Assembly: GCA_041653215.1 (NCBI GenBank)
Contig: JBAZFW010000002.1
Coordinates: 8,990-72,989, forward strand
Direction of reading: 5' to 3'
Source: Patescibacteria group bacterium
GTDB taxonomy: Bacteria > Patescibacteriota > Patescibacteriia > Patescibacteriales > GWC2-42-12
DNA: 64,000 bases
Shown here one piece after another: positions 21,339-56,874 of this stretch. Under the pieces are notes generated by a model. It had not been told where the DNA came from and did not search any database. It saw nothing but the letters and a program-made list of their open reading frames with translations. Made by a program: the position numbers and the translations under genes. The number at the start of each line of letters is the position of its first letter. Positions within the stretch are counted from its first letter, which is position 1.

Positions 21339-22505
21339 ATGAATACAAAAAAAATAAATCGTATCGGCATAGACGCTCGGTTTTACGGCCCAATAGGCAA
21401 GGGGTTGGGTAGATATACCCAGGAAGTTGTTGATAACATAATAAAGCTTGATCAAAAAAATAAGTACATTATATTTTTGCGTAAAGAAAATTTTTCTGAT
21501 TTTAAATGTGATGGCGTAAGAATAAAAAAAGTATTAGCTGATATAAAGTGGTATGGTTTAAGCGAGCAAATAATTTTTCCTTTTTACATTCTTCGCGAGC
21601 GCTTAGATTTAATGCATTTTCCGCATTTTAATGTACCGATTTTTTGCCCAGTTAAATTTATCGTTACCATCCACGATTTAATTTTAATAAAATTCCCGAC
21701 TTTGCGGGCCACTACTTTAGGGCCGGTCGTTTACAAAATAAAAAATTTAGCTTATAAAATTGTGATTTCATTAGCGGTTAAGCGAGCTATGAAAATTTTA
21801 GCGGTTTCAGAATATACGAAAAAAGCTGTCGTCGAACAATTTAAAGTTGATTCTAAAAAAGTTGTTGTAACTTATGAAGGCGTAGCAAATTTGTCTGTCA
21901 TTTCGAGCGTCAGCGAGAAATCGCTTGTAGACGAAAGCCTCTCGCATAAGGGATTTCTTCCTTCGGTCGAAATGACAAAAAATTATCTTCTTTATGTCGG
22001 TAACGGTTATCCGCATAAAAATTTAGAAGGTTTAATAAAAGTTTTTTCTGAAATAAGTAAAGCTAAACCAGAATTAAAATTAGTCTTAGTCGGCAAAGAA
22101 GATTATTTTTACAGCCGATTAAAACAATACGCTAAAAATTTTTCAAACAATATTATTTTTCCTGGCTATGTCATGGATAGTAAGTTAAAGGAATTATACG
22201 CTAACGCGACTCTTTATATTTTCCCTTCTTTTTATGAAGGTTTTGGTTTGCCGCCGTTAGAAGCTATGGCGCATGGTTTAGCGGTCGTTAGTTCCGATAA
22301 AACTTGCTTACCGGAAATACTTGGCGACGCTGCTTTATATTTTAATCCCGAGGATGAAATGGATATGAAAAATAAGATTGAGCAAGGATTAGCAGATGAA
22401 AAATTACGCGAAGATTTAATAAATAGGGGATATGAACAAATCAAAAAGTATAGTTGGGTAGACTGCGCGGAAAAAACTTTAGAAGTTTATAAAAGTTGTT
22501 TATAA
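21339..22505 (+). CDS. Glycosyltransferase family 4 (carries an in-frame palindromic element)
   Basis: RIGIDARFYG at the N-terminus and PSFYEGFGLPPLEAMAHGLAVVSSD at the C-terminus. The start was moved to the ATG at 21339, just outside the upstream repeat. Confidence 0.85.
   Translation: MNTKKINRIGIDARFYGPIGKGLGRYTQEVVDNIIKLDQKNKYIIFLRKENFSDFKCDGVRIKKVLADIKWYGLSEQIIFPFYILRERLDLMHFPHFNVPIFCPVKFIVTIHDLILIKFPTLRATTLGPVVYKIKNLAYKIVISLAVKRAMKILAVSEYTKKAVVEQFKVDSKKVVVTYEGVANLSVISSVSEKSLVDESLSHKGFLPSVEMTKNYLLYVGNGYPHKNLEGLIKVFSEISKAKPELKLVLVGKEDYFYSRLKQYAKNFSNNIIFPGYVMDSKLKELYANATLYIFPSFYEGFGLPPLEAMAHGLAVVSSDKTCLPEILGDAALYFNPEDEMDMKNKIEQGLADEKLREDLINRGYEQIKKYSWVDCAEKTLEVYKSCL
21896..21977. repeat. 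Type-III palindromic element (tgtcatttcgagcg...cgaaatgaca) inside the CDS, read through in frame
   Basis: tgtcatttcgagcgtcagcgagaaatcgc ... gggatttcttccttcggtcgaaatgaca. It is translated as SVISSVSEKSLVDESLSHKGFLPSVEMT. Confidence 0.8.
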
Positions 22506-52165: not shown

Positions 52166-52247
52166 TGTCATTCCGGCCTTGAGCCGGAATCCAGATTAAG
52201 GCGGTAATAACTTGTTTCTGGATTGCGGGTCGGAGCCCGCAATGACA
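52166..52247. repeat. Complete type-II element (82 bp)
   Basis: tgtcattccggccttgagccggaatccaga, a 21-bp spacer, then tctggattgcgggtcggagcccgcaatgaca. Confidence 0.85.
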
Positions 52248-53833: not shown

Positions 53834-53941
53834 TGTCATTGCGAGGAGCGTAGCGACGAAGCAATCTCACGGACAACAATTTTTTACCCAAACTTGCCAT
53901 TAGTGAGATTGCTTCGCTCCCGCTGGTCGCTCGCAATGACA
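53834..53941. repeat. Type-I palindromic element, 108 bp
   Basis: tgtcattgcgaggagcgtagcgacgaagcaatctcac ... gtgagattgcttcgctcccgctggtcgctcgcaatgaca. Confidence 0.85.
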
Positions 53942-53951
53942 AAATATAATT

Positions 53952-55274
53952 ATGTCAATATTCACAAAAACAATTTTTACCGGCTTTGCGCCTAACTTAA
54001 CCGGCCGCGATACGCGCTCGGCTTTAAGTTATTTATTATTGCCTTGGCGCTGGTTAAAAATTTCTTCAGGTAAATATACTGTAATGGCCGAAAAAAAATT
54101 ACGAGAATATTTTAATATAAAACATGCTTATGTTTTTGATAGCGGCCGCTCAGCTCTTTATTATGCTTTAAAGGCTTTAGGAGCAGGGGAAGGCGACGAA
54201 GTTTTAATGCAAGCTTATACTTGCGTTGTAGTAGTTAACGCTATTAAATTTACCGGGGCTAAGCCGATTTTTATTGACATCAATAATACTTTTAATATTG
54301 ACCCGGCCGATTTAGAAAAACGCATCACGCCTAAAACAAAAATTTTAATTATCCAACACACTTTCGGTCTGCCGGCAAATTTAGATTATCTTTTAGCCAT
54401 CGCCGCCAAACATAATATAAAAGTCATTGAAGATTGCGCTCACTCATTAGGCGCGCGCTACAATGGCAAACTAACCGGCACCTTCGGTCATATCGGCATG
54501 CTAAGTTTTGGCTCGGATAAAATTATTTCTTGTGTCCGCGGCGGAGCATTAATTACGAACGATAATGAGATAGGGAATAAAATTAAACAACTATCTTTAG
54601 AATTAGCTAAGCCGAAATTAGGAAAAACATTACAACATTTAATGCATTATCCAATATTCTACATCTCTAAACCTATTTATCATTTATTTATTGGTAAATT
54701 TATACTAATGTTAGCTAAAAAACTCAATGTTTTTAATAAAATAATCTATAAAAAAGAAAAAACAGGGGAGCAAGTCAATTTTTATCCGGCTAAATTAGCT
54801 AATAGCTTAGCGCATATATTATGCGAGCAAATAAATGAAATTGATGAGCTAAATGCGCATCGCCAAACTATCGCCAAATATTATAGCGAGCATCTAAGTT
54901 GCCATTCCGACTCCGAGCGAAGCGAGGAGGAGGAATCCCTTCAACCTGCCATAAAAACAGTTAAGGGATTTCTCGCTAACGCTCGAAATGACAATTCTAA
55001 TAATACTTGTGCATTTTTGCGTTATCCATTGCTAACTAAAAATCCGAAAGAACTTTTAACCTATGCTAAAAAGCAAGGGATAATTTTAGGCGATTGGTAT
55101 AGTTGCGTGATCGCGCCATGCGATAGTGAAATAAATAAAACCGGCTACCATGCCGGCGATTGTCCGAACGCTGAACGCCTAGCCGCCGAGTCAGTTAATT
55201 TACCAACTGATAGGCATATTACGGAAAAACAAGCGGAGAAAATTATAAAAATTATAAATTCATATAATAACTAG
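53952..55274 (+). CDS. DegT/DnrJ/EryC1/StrS-family PLP-dependent sugar aminotransferase (carries an in-frame palindromic element)
   Basis: SGRSALYYALKALG, IIQHTFGLPA, EDCAHSLGA and SFGSDKIISCVRGGAL (PLP lysine context). Confidence 0.8.
   Translation: MSIFTKTIFTGFAPNLTGRDTRSALSYLLLPWRWLKISSGKYTVMAEKKLREYFNIKHAYVFDSGRSALYYALKALGAGEGDEVLMQAYTCVVVVNAIKFTGAKPIFIDINNTFNIDPADLEKRITPKTKILIIQHTFGLPANLDYLLAIAAKHNIKVIEDCAHSLGARYNGKLTGTFGHIGMLSFGSDKIISCVRGGALITNDNEIGNKIKQLSLELAKPKLGKTLQHLMHYPIFYISKPIYHLFIGKFILMLAKKLNVFNKIIYKKEKTGEQVNFYPAKLANSLAHILCEQINEIDELNAHRQTIAKYYSEHLSCHSDSERSEEEESLQPAIKTVKGFLANARNDNSNNTCAFLRYPLLTKNPKELLTYAKKQGIILGDWYSCVIAPCDSEINKTGYHAGDCPNAERLAAESVNLPTDRHITEKQAEKIIKIINSYNN
54900..54992. 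repeat. Type-III palindromic element inside the CDS, read through in frame
   Basis: tgccattccgactccgagcgaagcgaggaggaggaatccc ... gggatttctcgctaacgctcgaaatgac. It is translated as CHSDSERSEEEESLQPAIKTVKGFLANARND. Confidence 0.75.
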
Positions 55275-55329
55275 TTAGGCGAAATAAGGTTCGGAAATTA
55301 AAAAATTTTAAATAAATTTTTTCAACAAT

Positions 55330-55737
55330 ATGGACTATTCTTCAATTCTGTCCGCACTAATTGGCGGCACTGTAGCAATATTTGTTAAATATTTTTTCGA
55401 CAAACGAAAAGAAGATTATTTTAATTTGAATAAAATAATGGAAGATAAATATCGCAGTTTATTAATCTTTATGGCTTGTTCTTTAGATATAAAAAAGAAA
55501 AAACATTTTACATTGAGTGAGCAATACCCCGCAGAATCTGAAAAAGAGTACCTCGAAAAAGTTAAGGAGTACTATTATCACAGCTTATTATATTCTCCAG
55601 ACGAAGTATTATTAAAATTGAAAAAATTTATTCAAGACCCTACTCAAGGAAATTATATTGAAGTGGCAAAAGCGATGAGAAAAGATTTGTGGAGGAGAAA
55701 AACCAAACTAACGGAAAAAGATATTATTATTAAATAA
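55330..55737 (+). CDS. Hypothetical protein with N-terminal TM helix
   Basis: 135 aa. The N-terminus is SSILSALIGGTVAIFVKYFF. No family recognised. Confidence 0.4.
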   Translation: MDYSSILSALIGGTVAIFVKYFFDKRKEDYFNLNKIMEDKYRSLLIFMACSLDIKKKKHFTLSEQYPAESEKEYLEKVKEYYYHSLLYSPDEVLLKLKKFIQDPTQGNYIEVAKAMRKDLWRRKTKLTEKDIIIK

Positions 55738-55762
55738 TTTCCAAGCCTTACATCGTACAACG

Positions 55763-55814
55763 CGCGATATCCGCAAGGGCTAAAGCCACATTCTAAAGAA
55801 CATCGGATATCGCG
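55763..55814. repeat. 11-bp perfect inverted repeat cgcgatatccg / cggatatcgcg with 30-nt loop
   Basis: Arms at 55763-55773 and 55804-55814. A small ggc-taaa-gcc hairpin lies inside the loop. The repeat sits between the hypothetical gene and the femAB-like gene. Confidence 0.6.
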
Positions 55815-55830
55815 AAAACGTTAATATGTT

Positions 55831-56874
55831 ATGCAAAATGATATAAATATGCAAATTATTATAAAAACAATTGAATCCCAAGTCGAATGGCGCGAAGCCG
55901 AAGCACTATTTAAACCGCATACATTCTTACAATCGTGGGAATGGAGTATATCACAAGAAGCTTTAGGCCAAAAAATTTTTCGCTTAGGAATATTTAAAGA
56001 CGATAAAATAATTGGCATGGCTTTTTTCTATTTAATAAAAGCCAGACGCGGTTCATTTCTTTTTTGTCCGCATGGTCCGATTATTGATTGGCGAGAAGCT
56101 GATTCAGTATTGCCGATTTTACTTAAATATTTAATTAAGCTTGGCAAAGAAATAAAAGCTGATTTTATACGAATTAGTCCTTTAGCCGAAAATTCAACCG
56201 CTAATCAAAAAATTGTTAAAAATTTAGGCTTTAAACCGGCACCAGTTCATATGATGCACCCGGAATTATCATGGATGATTGATTTAACGCCAGGAGAAGA
56301 AATTATCTTAAGCAACATGGAAAAACGCACGCGTTATTCCATCCGCAAAGCTGAAAAAGATGGCGTTGAAGTAATTTCTTCTACTGATCAAAACGATCTT
56401 GATAAATTTTATGAAATTTACAAACAAACTGCCGATCGCCAAGGGTTTGTGCCTTATAATAAAGAATACTTAAAAAAAGAGCTGCAATCATTTTTACAAA
56501 ATAACAAAATAAAAATTTACTTTGCTTATTATCAAAAAGAATTAATAGCTACCGCCATGATTGTTTATACTAATAATTCAGCCTTTTATCATCACGGCGC
56601 TTCTATTAGAAAATATTCCAATATTACGGCTTCAGAGTTATTACAATGGGCCGCCATAAAAGAAGCAAAACAAAGCGGCCTGTCTTATTATAATTTTTGG
56701 GGAATTGTTAACGAAAAAGAAAAAAATCATCCTTGGGCCGGATTAAGTAAGTTTAAAAAGGGCTTTGGCGGCTTCGCGGAAGAATACTTGCACGCCCAAG
56801 ATTATGTTTTGTCAAAAAAATATTGGTTAAATTATCTAATTGAAATGATAAGAAAAATTAAACGCGGATATTAA
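55831..56874 (+). CDS. FemAB-family peptidoglycan interpeptide-bridge aminoacyltransferase
   Basis: HTFLQSWEWS, a two-lobed GNAT architecture, and FYHHGAS...YNFWGI, typical of FemX/FemAB proteins. Confidence 0.75.
   Translation: MQNDINMQIIIKTIESQVEWREAEALFKPHTFLQSWEWSISQEALGQKIFRLGIFKDDKIIGMAFFYLIKARRGSFLFCPHGPIIDWREADSVLPILLKYLIKLGKEIKADFIRISPLAENSTANQKIVKNLGFKPAPVHMMHPELSWMIDLTPGEEIILSNMEKRTRYSIRKAEKDGVEVISSTDQNDLDKFYEIYKQTADRQGFVPYNKEYLKKELQSFLQNNKIKIYFAYYQKELIATAMIVYTNNSAFYHHGASIRKYSNITASELLQWAAIKEAKQSGLSYYNFWGIVNEKEKNHPWAGLSKFKKGFGGFAEEYLHAQDYVLSKKYWLNYLIEMIRKIKRGY

What the first reader, a model, noticed from the sequence alone, without database searches (positions are those of the whole stretch)
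54900..54992. Second palindromic element translated in frame, inside a DegT-family aminotransferase
About 93 nt with family-type arms (tgccattccgactccgagcg.. / ..gggatttctcgctaacgctcgaaatgaca) lie inside 53952-55274 with the frame open. They encode CHSDSERSEEEESLQPAIKTVKGFLANARND, between YYSEHLS and a short N-rich stretch (NSNNT) that precedes CAFLRYPLL.

The right arm matches the reverse complement of the type-I/III left terminus, as recorded for the 752 element (tgtcattgcgagcgttagcgag...). This is a second independent case, in an unrelated enzyme, of a repeat tolerated as coding sequence.
Basis: partly seen in the sequence, partly recalled or inferred. Interest (0 to 1): 0.65.

Follow-up and report, generated by a model that had tools for sequence, protein, structure and literature searches.

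The report
Hairpin repeat translated inside sugar aminotransferase
A 94-base selfish hairpin repeat lies in reading frame in a variable loop of the only DegT-type sugar aminotransferase gene of an uncultured ultra-small (Patescibacteria) bacterium and adds 31 amino acids; this kind of event is known from Rickettsia, so it is a new example of a known kind.

Summary
Window 54900-54993 is a full-length, partly decayed copy of a 92-94-nt double-hairpin repeat of the TGTCATT...AATGACA family. It lies in frame in the DegT gene 53952-55274 and encodes CHSDSERSEEEESLQPAIKTVKGFLANARND.

Of 117 orthologues, 115 lack the segment, including an 88%-identical one from the same metagenome. One 76%-identical orthologue carries the homologous copy at the same codon. 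Near-identical copies are intergenic in related genomes, so this is an insertion and not native sequence.

The insert and about 80 nt of flanks form a ~175-nt patch that groups with the distant orthologue. The rest of the gene groups with the close one. The simplest reading is one old insertion spread by homologous recombination.

The gene is the only DegT gene in the genome, is under purifying selection (dN/dS 0.145) and keeps the conserved PLP lysine column. AlphaFold2 places the insert as a low-confidence excursion where the insert-free protein has a coil loop.

Type-I relatives of the repeat bracket small GIY-YIG nuclease genes. This links the family to the published Ssn/NTS hairpin system and, by behaviour, to Rickettsia palindromic elements.

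Translation was not shown directly.

The parts
53952..55274 (+). Host gene: DegT/DnrJ/EryC1/StrS-family PLP-dependent sugar aminotransferase, 440 aa. It is the only gene of this family in the genome.
   Evidence: ORF. Pfam PF01041 1.8e-68. Closest solved relative is GDP-perosamine synthase: 3bn1 by sequence at 5e-41 and 3dr7_B by fold with TM 0.86. It is the single DegT locus in G000. It lies in conserved synteny with a Mur ligase and FemAB.
54900..54993 (+). In-frame 94-nt double-hairpin repeat, a MITE-like element of the TGTCATTTCGA...TCGAAATGACA subtype. Codons 54900-54992 give residues C317-D347.
   Evidence: It aligns end to end with 92-94-nt copies in relatives and with the copy in the P0003 orthologue. 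It is absent from 115 of 117 orthologues.
54900..54941 (+). Left arm: decayed terminus TGCCATTCCGAC, a GC-rich inner hairpin, and the inner repeat GGAGGAATCCCTT.
   Evidence: 12 of its 49 positions (with the adjoining loop) differ from the P0003 copy. Two T>C changes break outer-stem pairs. GC is 59.5%.
54942..54962 (+). AT-richer central loop of the element.
   Evidence: Fold. It is the variable column block in the subfamily alignment.
54963..54993 (+). Right arm AAGGGATTTCTCGCTAACGCTCGAAATGACA, identical to the subfamily consensus.
   Evidence: 31/31 identical to the intergenic copies in L021 and L022. Only 2 of 45 positions in the right half differ from the P0003 copy, against 12 of 49 in the left half (Fisher p = 0.008). 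The same arm pattern occurs in MAGs of several phyla.
54848..55022 (+). Mosaic patch: the element plus about 50 nt of left flank and 30 nt of right flank, whose ancestry differs from the rest of the gene.
   Evidence: Informative sites in this run group the window with the P0003 orthologue. Elsewhere they group it with the P0002 orthologue, which is 91-92% identical in nucleotides.
53834..53941 (.). Context: intergenic 108-nt type-I copy of the repeat family just upstream of the DegT start codon.
   Evidence: It is present in the window and L003. The site is empty in L022, L005 and L001.
52166..52247 (.). Context: NTS-like (TGTCATTCCGGCC...) element in the hydrolase/Mur-ligase spacer.
   Evidence: The same slot holds a TTTCGA-subtype copy in L022 and is empty in L005.
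21896..21977 (.). Closest copy in the same genome: an 82-nt element in frame in a GT4 glycosyltransferase, in opposite orientation and read in another element frame.
   Evidence: (I15).

Best explanation
A non-autonomous, MITE-like double-hairpin repeat of the TGTCATT...AATGACA family inserted into the DNA that encodes a variable coil loop of a DegT-type sugar aminotransferase. The loop lies between the long interdomain helix (residues 297-314) and the first conserved strand of the C-terminal domain (LRYPL).

The element has no stop codon in two of its six frames. The allele that survived reads through it and gives a 31-residue, probably flexible, surface excursion in place of about 12 native loop residues. 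The enzyme core is untouched and the gene stays under purifying selection, so the insert is tolerated passenger DNA rather than a new functional module.

The insertion happened once, in an ancestor shared with the P0003 lineage. A ~175-nt patch carrying it was later placed by homologous recombination into the otherwise P0002-like gene of the window's lineage.

The copy is now probably immobile, because its left terminus has decayed.

By inference from type-I relatives that bracket small GIY-YIG nuclease genes, the family is moved or maintained by Ssn-like single-strand-specific nucleases acting on the hairpin arms.

Shown here: the insertion, its family membership, the open frame, the mosaic patch, selection on the gene, and loop placement in a predicted model. 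Inferred: translation in vivo, retained enzyme activity, the direction of recombination, and the mobilising enzyme.
For: Insertion rather than native sequence:
- The segment is 58 and 57 aa in P0001 and P0003, and 27-46 aa in the other 115 orthologues.
- The four same-genus species genomes in which this part of the gene could be read all have the native NxxINLPWR loop.
- A region-restricted search of 5.8 billion proteins found only this protein.

Mobile family:
- About 45 paired copies occur in the 1.03-Mb genome, most of them outside long open frames.
- An 82-nt intergenic copy in L021 is 91% identical over 66 nt, and another lies in L022.
- Copies of 92-94 nt with the same architecture occur in genomes of the same family and order.
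- Filled, differently filled and empty sites occur at two neighbouring spacers.

Single event plus recombination:
- The P0003 copy has the same codon position, orientation and 94-nt subtype, and is 80/94 identical.
- The two share derived flank residues (HRQTIAKxY..., TCxFLRYP).
- Informative sites 54848-55022 group the window with P0003. The rest of the gene groups it with P0002.

Gene still functional:
- dN/dS is 0.145-0.164 against three orthologues.
- P0001 shares all 42 invariant columns of the 117-sequence alignment, including S185, F186, G187, D189 and K190. K190 is the PLP lysine by comparison with the DegT family.
- It is the only DegT gene in a 96%-complete genome.
- Two alleles that differ at 14 of the element's 94 positions, without indels, both keep the frame open.

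Loop location:
- The AlphaFold2 model has mean pLDDT 93.8, with about 61-65 only over residues about 321-350.
- The insert-free P0002 model has a coil of about 20 residues with pLDDT 74-83 at the same place.

GIY-YIG link:
- Four of 17 GIY-YIG ORFs in the genome are bracketed by TGTCATTGCGA...TCGCAATGACA in units of 383-395 nt. The arms of these units are those of the ~100-nt type-I copies.
- The architecture of a hairpin repeat, a small GIY-YIG gene and a second hairpin repeat is described for Ssn/NTS in PMC11893778.

Independent assemblies: L023 is 100% identical over 2592 nt. P0003 is present in both an ENA and a JGI assembly.
Against: - There are no transcript, read-depth or proteomic data.
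- The element replaces the native I-x-L-P stretch that most orthologues keep, so some loss of activity cannot be excluded.
- Half of the same-genus species genomes have no detectable orthologue, so the gene may be dispensable. That weakens the argument from it being the sole copy.
- The non-element flanks of the patch are only 67-70% identical to P0003, below the gene average of 78%. The donor is therefore not P0003 itself, and the direction of transfer is inferred by parsimony.
- No GIY-YIG gene was found next to a copy of this particular (TTTCGA) subtype.
- The arms do not match the published strict SRM search pattern.
- No target-site duplication could be defined.
Confidence: 0.85

Rival explanations
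1. The insert, or at least its right arm, is kept because it does something. One option is that it still works as a recognition hairpin at the DNA level for an Ssn-like nuclease or for recombination. The other is that it forms a useful peptide (the KGFLANARND helix) on the enzyme.
For: - The right half is far better conserved than the left half: 2/45 against 12/49 differences between the two DegT copies (p = 0.008).
- The right arm is 31/31 identical to intergenic copies in other genomes.
- There are no synonymous differences in its 15 codons, although gene-wide dS exceeds 1.
- AlphaFold2 draws a short helix at residues 338-345.
- NTS hairpins modulate recombination in Neisseria (PMC11893778), and here a recombination patch is centred on the element.
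Against: - Missing synonymous change argues against peptide-level selection. It is equally explained by gene conversion from other family copies, which also accounts for the identity with the consensus.
- dN/dS in the element is about 0.68, close to neutral.
- pLDDT is only 61-65.
- The left terminus is decaying, so the hairpin as a whole is not maintained.
- 115 of 117 orthologues do without the insert.
Confidence: 0.12
2. The insertion has damaged the enzyme, and the gene is a young pseudogene or a crippled allele that has not yet acquired stops.
For: - The native I-x-L-P loop stretch conserved in most orthologues is gone.
- Five of ten same-genus genomes lack a detectable orthologue, so loss is possible in this group.
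- There are no expression data.
Against: - The ORF is intact.
- dN/dS is 0.145 against P0002, P0003 and P0004.
- P0001 shares every invariant column.
- The insert-bearing allele persists in two lineages whose genes have diverged to dS above 1, and the frame is kept in both.
- Natural orthologues such as P0009 and P0024 lack the I-x-L-P stretch altogether, so it is not required.
- The model folds confidently around the insert.
Confidence: 0.07
3. The window and P0003 lineages acquired the element by two independent insertions at the same hot spot, and there was no recombination of a shared patch.
For: - The family re-uses sites. Two neighbouring spacers are filled by different element types in different relatives.
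- The same DegT loop carries a different, NTS-like hairpin in frame in P0011.
- The element is more alike (85%) than its flanks (67-70%).
Against: - The two copies share the same codon boundary, orientation, 94-nt subtype and inner left-arm hairpin.
- They share derived non-element flank residues on both sides (HRQTIAK.Y and TC.FLRYP) that P0002 and P0004 lack.
- The run of informative sites extends outside the element on both sides.
Confidence: 0.1
4. The segment is native coding sequence that only resembles the repeats, or it is an assembly artefact that joins strains at a repeat.
For: The 5' 200 nt of the gene are 98-100% identical to P0002 and the rest about 90%, so the sample does contain close strains.
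Against: - The segment is absent from 115 of 117 orthologues.
- Near-identical copies are intergenic elsewhere.
- GC is 50% against 35.6%.
- A separate JGI contig is 100% identical across both junctions.
- At 94 nt the element is shorter than the 150-nt reads typical of such data, so single reads would span both junctions. The read length of these runs was not checked.
- The P0003 allele was assembled twice independently.
Confidence: 0.02

Closest known systems
Rickettsia palindromic elements (RPEs; Ogata et al. 2000 and 2002, as summarised in PMC10969869 and PMC3184786)
   Same: - A palindromic repeat of about 100-150 nt present in many copies.
- Copies inserted in frame in unrelated housekeeping genes, with the ORF kept open.
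- The inserted peptide is judged compatible with the host protein's fold.
- The exact right-arm pattern also occurs in a Rickettsia sp. MAG.
   Different: - The host is a Patescibacteria (CPR) bacterium, not Rickettsia.
- Homology to RPE-1 to RPE-10 consensus sequences was not tested, because they were not on hand.
- Here the family is tied to small GIY-YIG nuclease genes.
- The insert is shared between two diverged lineages as a recombined patch.
Ssn single-strand DNA nucleases (GIY-YIG, cd10448) with NTS/SRM hairpin repeats (Nat Commun 2025, PMC11893778)
   Same: - The hairpin repeats start with (C/T)GTCAT.
- They occur in many copies and flank a single-domain GIY-YIG gene of about 95-100 aa on both sides. 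Four such units occur in this genome.
- The window's type-II arms and the P0011 insert are close to the Neisseria NTS consensus CGTCATTCCCGCG...GCGGGAATC.
   Different: - The arms of the DegT element (ATTTCGAG...) do not match the paper's strict SRM pattern.
- No GIY-YIG gene was found beside this subtype.
- In the held main text, the terms 'intragenic' and 'Patescibacteria' do not occur and 'in-frame' was not searched. Its supplements were not available.
- cd10448 membership and ssDNA cleavage are untested here.
Bacterial MITEs such as Correia/CREE, ERIC, BOX and RUP (reviews PMC10969869, PMC3184786)
   Same: Short, non-autonomous, with terminal inverted repeats, mostly intergenic, and occasionally fused in frame to host ORFs.
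   Different: No transposase-bearing parent IS and no target-site duplication could be shown. The only gene found between the arms of full-length relatives is a GIY-YIG nuclease.
Other in-frame copies in this genome (GT4 glycosyltransferase at window 21896-21977; MtaB; a UvrD-like helicase)
   Same: The same repeat family, in frame, with peptides ending ...ARND or VEMT.
   Different: Different subtype, orientation or reading frame. Only the DegT case was shown here to be shared with a second lineage inside a mosaic patch.

Membership tests
DegT/DnrJ/EryC1/StrS aminotransferases (host gene) | Match to Pfam PF01041 above the curated cut-off | tested here: met
   231.9 bits against a cut-off of 19.8, E 1.8e-68.
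DegT/DnrJ/EryC1/StrS aminotransferases (host gene) | Fold-type-I PLP fold with the conserved Schiff-base lysine and the PLP-binding aspartate | tested here: met
   The AlphaFold2 model (pLDDT 93.8) matches GDP-perosamine synthase 3dr7_B with TM 0.86. K190 in SFGSDK and D161 in EDCAH are invariant across 117 orthologues. Their catalytic roles are assigned from family knowledge.
Rickettsia palindromic elements (RPE) | Palindromic repeat of about 100-150 nt, multi-copy in the genome | tested here: met
   94 nt, hairpin z = -3.9. About 45 paired family copies in 1.03 Mb.
Rickettsia palindromic elements (RPE) | In-frame insertion in a protein-coding gene at a place compatible with the fold | tested here: met
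   Open frame. Insertion defined against 115 orthologues. Low-pLDDT loop in a confident model.
Rickettsia palindromic elements (RPE) | Sequence homology to one of the RPE-1 to RPE-10 consensus sequences | not tested
The only hint is an exact 27-base arm match in a Rickettsia sp. MAG.
Ssn / NTS-SRM hairpin system | The repeat matches the published SRM search pattern HGTCWYN(0-2)YYVSBRHN(0-5)WNVSBRGN(0-2)RNCYNB | tested here: not met
   No match in either strand of the DegT copy or of five related copies. There are 16 strict matches elsewhere in the genome. The arms do share the TGTCAT tag and the hairpin layout.
Ssn / NTS-SRM hairpin system | A small single-domain GIY-YIG gene flanked on both sides by the repeat | tested here: inconclusive
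   Met for the type-I arms: four units of 383-395 nt. Not found for the TTTCGA subtype to which the DegT copy belongs.
Ssn / NTS-SRM hairpin system | The nuclease belongs to cd10448 and cuts the repeat as single-stranded DNA | not testable with these tools
   Only Pfam PF01541 could be scored (5.6e-12). There was no NCBIfam or PDB match. The biochemistry is not available.
MITE (miniature inverted-repeat transposable element) | Terminal inverted repeats | tested here: met
   The 11-bp termini TGTCATTTCGA / TCGAAATGACA are perfect in the P0003 copy and pair at 9 of 11 positions in the window copy.
MITE (miniature inverted-repeat transposable element) | Target-site duplication and a parent IS that encodes a transposase | tested here: inconclusive
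   Comparisons of filled and empty sites give no clean duplication. No transposase-bearing parent was seen, only GIY-YIG-bearing units.

The most novel reading that the evidence does not exclude
The consensus-perfect right arm inside the DegT gene may still be a working single-strand recognition hairpin for an Ssn-like GIY-YIG nuclease. Intragenic hairpins of this kind would then delimit homologous-recombination tracts in Patescibacteria, as NTS repeats do in Neisseria transformation. That would explain why a ~175-nt mosaic patch is centred on the element and why one arm is held at the nucleotide level while the other decays. The repeat would then be a cis-acting recombination signal that is also read as protein.
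Probability: 0.12. Interest if true: 0.7.

Novelty: new member of a known kind. Interest (0 to 1): 0.42.

Why it matters
In-frame 'protein-coding palindromes' were described as a peculiarity of Rickettsia. This case, with at least three others in the same 1-Mb genome, shows the same behaviour in ultra-small Patescibacteria, with a repeat family linked to the recently described Ssn GIY-YIG nucleases.

The case adds three concrete points:
- An insert-bearing allele can persist across deep divergence and move between lineages as a short recombined patch.
- One loop of one enzyme has taken up two different hairpin types independently.
- The two arms of a fixed copy evolve at very different rates.

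In practice, such inserts inflate and distort protein annotations in CPR genomes. They also mark loops that tolerate about 30 extra residues.

Tried and rejected
- Rfam: nothing on the element. There were only sub-threshold miRNA-model hits on the upstream intergenic copy.
- Terminator or promoter role: no terminator-like site at the element.
- Strict SRM pattern from PMC11893778: no match to this subtype.
- GIY-YIG gene next to TTTCGA-subtype copies in 7 loci from other phyla and in the own genome: none found.
- Target-site duplication: filled and empty sites at two spacers differ by more than the element, so no clean duplication is seen. An apparent 8-bp direct repeat beside the L021 copy was not reproduced at L022.
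- Region-restricted protein search for more insert-bearing alleles: it found only the query.
- Search of the P0003 record for more copies: the record is not held. The held 12 kb do contain family copies and a GIY-YIG tail.
- NCBIfam and PDB searches with the GIY-YIG protein: no hits.
- Supplements of the Ssn paper and the Ogata 2002 paper: not held.
- The idea that the element landed in a short-loop allele like P0009 (27 + 31 = 58 residues) fits arithmetically but could not be tested.
Full report
**Observation**

Window 53952-55274 (+) is an intact 440-aa ORF. It is a DegT/DnrJ/EryC1/StrS aminotransferase (Pfam PF01041, 1.8e-68).

The stretch is a strong hairpin: -34.2 kcal/mol against -21.4 +/- 3.3 for shuffles, z = -3.9. 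It is GC-rich, 50% against 35.6% for the rest of the gene.

Its right arm 54963-54993 matches other copies in the genome:
- 26/27 to the reverse complement of the left arm of the copy at 21896.
- 25/27 to a copy on contig C13.
- 21/22 to the terminus of the element at window 752.

The left terminus TGCCATTCCGAC carries two T>C changes relative to TGTCATTTCGAC.

**The repeat family**

The genome is 1.03 Mb in 50 contigs, 34% GC and 96% complete. A census for paired TGTCATTGCGAG...CTCGCAATGACA termini with up to 2 mismatches found 45 elements of 75-236 nt, most about 100 nt. Only three of them lie inside long open frames, and the DegT copy makes a fourth.

The DegT copy belongs to a subtype with this layout: TGTCATTTCGAC, a variable GC hairpin, GAGAAATCxCTTA, a loop, TTAAGGGATTTCTC, GCTAAC, GCTCGAAATGACA. 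Copies of 92-94 nt with the same inner left hairpin occur in genomes of the same family and order.

Near-identical copies are intergenic in related metagenome contigs. An 82-nt copy in L021 lies after an ORF that looks like ribosomal protein L11 and is 91% identical over 66 nt. Another lies in L022 in the hydrolase/Mur-ligase spacer.

At that spacer the window, L003 and L001 carry a different, NTS-like element, and L005 is empty. At the spacer just upstream of DegT, the window and L003 carry a type-I copy, while L022, L005 and L001 are empty. The family is therefore mobile on the time scale of these lineages.

The exact right-arm pattern (27 specified bases) also occurs in MAGs labelled Peribacteria, Gracilibacteria, Rickettsia sp., Anaerolineales, Caldilineaceae, Desulfobacterales, Alpha- and Gammaproteobacteria.

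**It is an insertion**

In an alignment of 117 orthologues (54-88% identity), the segment from H303 to L360 is 27-46 residues in 115 sequences. It is 58 and 57 residues only in this protein and in P0003.

P0002 is 88% identical in protein and 91-92% in DNA. It has NSKINLPWREAELNGGA at this place. The four same-genus species genomes in which this part of the gene could be read also have the native loop.

A search restricted to residues 308-357 found no further carrier among 5.8 billion proteins. Synteny (seryl-tRNA synthetase, hydrolase, Mur ligase, DegT, FemAB) is conserved, so these are orthologues.

Relative to the common 39-residue form, the 31 element-encoded residues replace about 12 native residues (N-x-x-I-x-L-P-W-R...).

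**Shared copy and mosaic**

P0003 is 76% identical and was assembled in both an ENA and a JGI data set. It carries the homologous copy at the same codon, in the same orientation and of the same 94-nt subtype. Its termini are perfect and it is 80/94 identical to the window copy.

Along the gene, parsimony-informative sites group the window with P0002. The exception is a continuous run from 54848 to 55022, where they group it with P0003. A smaller patch of the same kind lies at 54454-54512.

The non-element flanks inside the patch share derived residues with P0003 (HRQTIAKxY, TCxFLRYP) but are only 67-70% identical to it. I read this as one old insertion whose allele was later moved into the window's lineage by homologous recombination from an unsampled donor.

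The insert-free state is ancestral, because every other lineage has it. Independent insertion at the same codon is the weaker alternative.

A JGI contig from sample 3300014205 is 100% identical to window 54062-56653. The insert-free P0002 contig comes from the same sample. The two allele types therefore coexist in one community, in populations about 8% apart.

**State of the gene**

- Nei-Gojobori dN/dS outside the element is 0.145 (against P0002, dS 0.38), 0.145 (against P0003, dS 1.15) and 0.164 (against P0004).
- P0001 shares all 42 invariant columns, including the SFGSDK lysine K190 and D161.
- It is the only DegT-family locus in the genome. Five of ten same-genus genomes show no orthologue, so the gene may not be essential.
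- No terminator-like site lies at the hairpin, and no Rfam family matches it.

**Structure**

The AlphaFold2 model with the 117-sequence alignment has mean pLDDT 93.8 and pTM 0.93. Only residues about 321-350 are low, at about 61-65. They form an excursion after helix 297-314 and before strand 357-362.

The model matches GDP-perosamine synthase (3dr7_B: E 6e-28, TM 0.86 on the target) and other sugar aminotransferases.

The insert-free P0002 model has a coil of about 20 residues with pLDDT 74-83 at the same place. Natural orthologues vary there from 27 to 46 residues, and some lack the I-x-L-P stretch. The loop is therefore tolerant.

I could not measure the distance to the active site.

**Evolution of the insert**

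Between the two DegT copies the element has dS 0.22, dN 0.15 and dN/dS 0.68. The peptide is therefore under little constraint.

Change is very uneven across the element:
- 12 of 49 positions differ in the left half and 2 of 45 in the right half (Fisher p = 0.008).
- There are only 4 synonymous differences where about 12 are expected at the gene-wide rate (binomial 2e-4).
- None of those falls in the right arm.
- The right arm equals the subfamily consensus, 31/31 to L021 and L022.

Peptide-level selection would not remove synonymous change. I favour gene conversion from other copies. A DNA-level function is the less likely alternative, and this remains unexplained.

**Frames**

The canonical element is open in two of six frames. 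One reads CHFD...KGFLANARND and the other VISS...VEMT. DegT uses the first. The GT4 copy at 21896 uses the second, in the opposite orientation. The two cases are therefore separate events.

**Mobilising machinery**

The genome has 17 GIY-YIG matches. Four ORFs of 97-103 aa are bracketed by TGTCATTGCGA 60-72 nt upstream of the domain and TCGCAATGACA 91-103 nt downstream of it. These give units of 383-395 nt whose arms are those of the ~100-nt type-I copies. A fifth and a sixth ORF have partial or other (C/T)GTCATT-type arms.

PMC11893778 describes this architecture. SsnA is a 94-aa single-domain GIY-YIG (cd10448) nuclease that cuts single-stranded DNA. It is flanked by NTS/SRM hairpins (CGTCATTCCCGCGMAVGCGGGAATCYRG). 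The authors note an IS-like layout and enrichment in Rickettsia and Wolbachia.

The window's type-II arms are close to that consensus. The hairpin found in frame in the same DegT loop of P0011 (TGTCATTCCCGCG...GCGGGAATCCAG, encoding VIPAKACLSGRQAGIQ) is also close to it.

The arms of the DegT element do not fit the paper's strict pattern, and no GIY-YIG gene was found beside this subtype. The link for this subtype therefore rests on family resemblance only.

**Comparison with known systems, and novelty**

In behaviour this is what Ogata and colleagues described for Rickettsia palindromic elements, as summarised in PMC10969869. In family it is nearest to the Ssn/SRM hairpins.

My literature searches found no description of such in-frame copies in Patescibacteria. 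Earlier notes of this scan record many similar cases, including two in this genome.

I therefore rate it as a new member of a known kind. It is a well-documented instance with three features of its own: the recombined patch, the loop hit twice independently, and the asymmetric decay of the arms.

Noticed in passing
L025 (gene 1128-2414; P0011), loop codons about 316-335: A different, NTS-like single hairpin (TGTCATTCCCGCGAAAGCC...GGCGGGAATCCAG, -25.5 kcal/mol) lies in frame in the same DegT loop of a 68%-identical orthologue. It encodes VIPAKACLSGRQAGIQ. This is a second, independent repeat insertion in this loop.
   Followed up: partly
L040 (G022:C1, about 297033-297125): A 92-nt copy of the same subtype is in frame in a 578-aa multi-pass membrane protein of a same-family genome (...VISTPRLAGGKSLQSEISKFKGFLAYARND...). 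The same ORF has a second repeat-like stretch (SWIPACAGMT...).
   Followed up: partly
Genome contig C24:7001-7101 (outside the window): A type-I copy is in frame in a 1024-aa UvrD/PcrA-like helicase ORF (...SVIASDRRERSNL...GSPRNDKIV...). The MtaB case at C1:28061-28162 is also visible (...SLRATKRSEAIS...DAPRNDNLV...).
   Followed up: partly
Window 52166-52247, against L022, L005, L001 and L003: The hydrolase/Mur-ligase spacer holds an NTS-like element in three lineages, a TTTCGA-subtype element in a fourth, and nothing in a fifth. The slot is re-used.
   Followed up: yes
Window 53834-53941: A type-I element separates the Mur-ligase stop from the DegT start in the window and in L003. In L022, L005 and L001 the two genes abut or overlap. 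The filled site has extra bases beyond the element on both sides.
   Followed up: yes
Whole genome G000 (for example C24:2616-3001, C24:10071-10464, C24:11537-11918, C2:76034-76421): There are 17 GIY-YIG matches in a 1.03-Mb genome. Four ORFs of 97-103 aa are bracketed by type-I arms in units of 383-395 nt, three of them within 10 kb on contig C24.
   Followed up: yes
Window 54454-54512: A second short run of sites in the DegT gene groups the window with P0003 rather than P0002. In addition, the first ~200 nt of the gene are 98-100% identical to P0002 against about 90% further on. The gene is a recombination mosaic in general.
   Followed up: partly
L011 and L014 (Rickettsia sp. MAG), L007/L008/L019 (Peribacteria), L016/L020 (Gracilibacteria), L010/L015/L018 (Chloroflexota), L009 (Desulfobacterales): The 27-base right-arm pattern is exact in genomes of very distant phyla, including a Rickettsia MAG. 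This raises the question whether some RPE families are homologous to this family.
   Followed up: no
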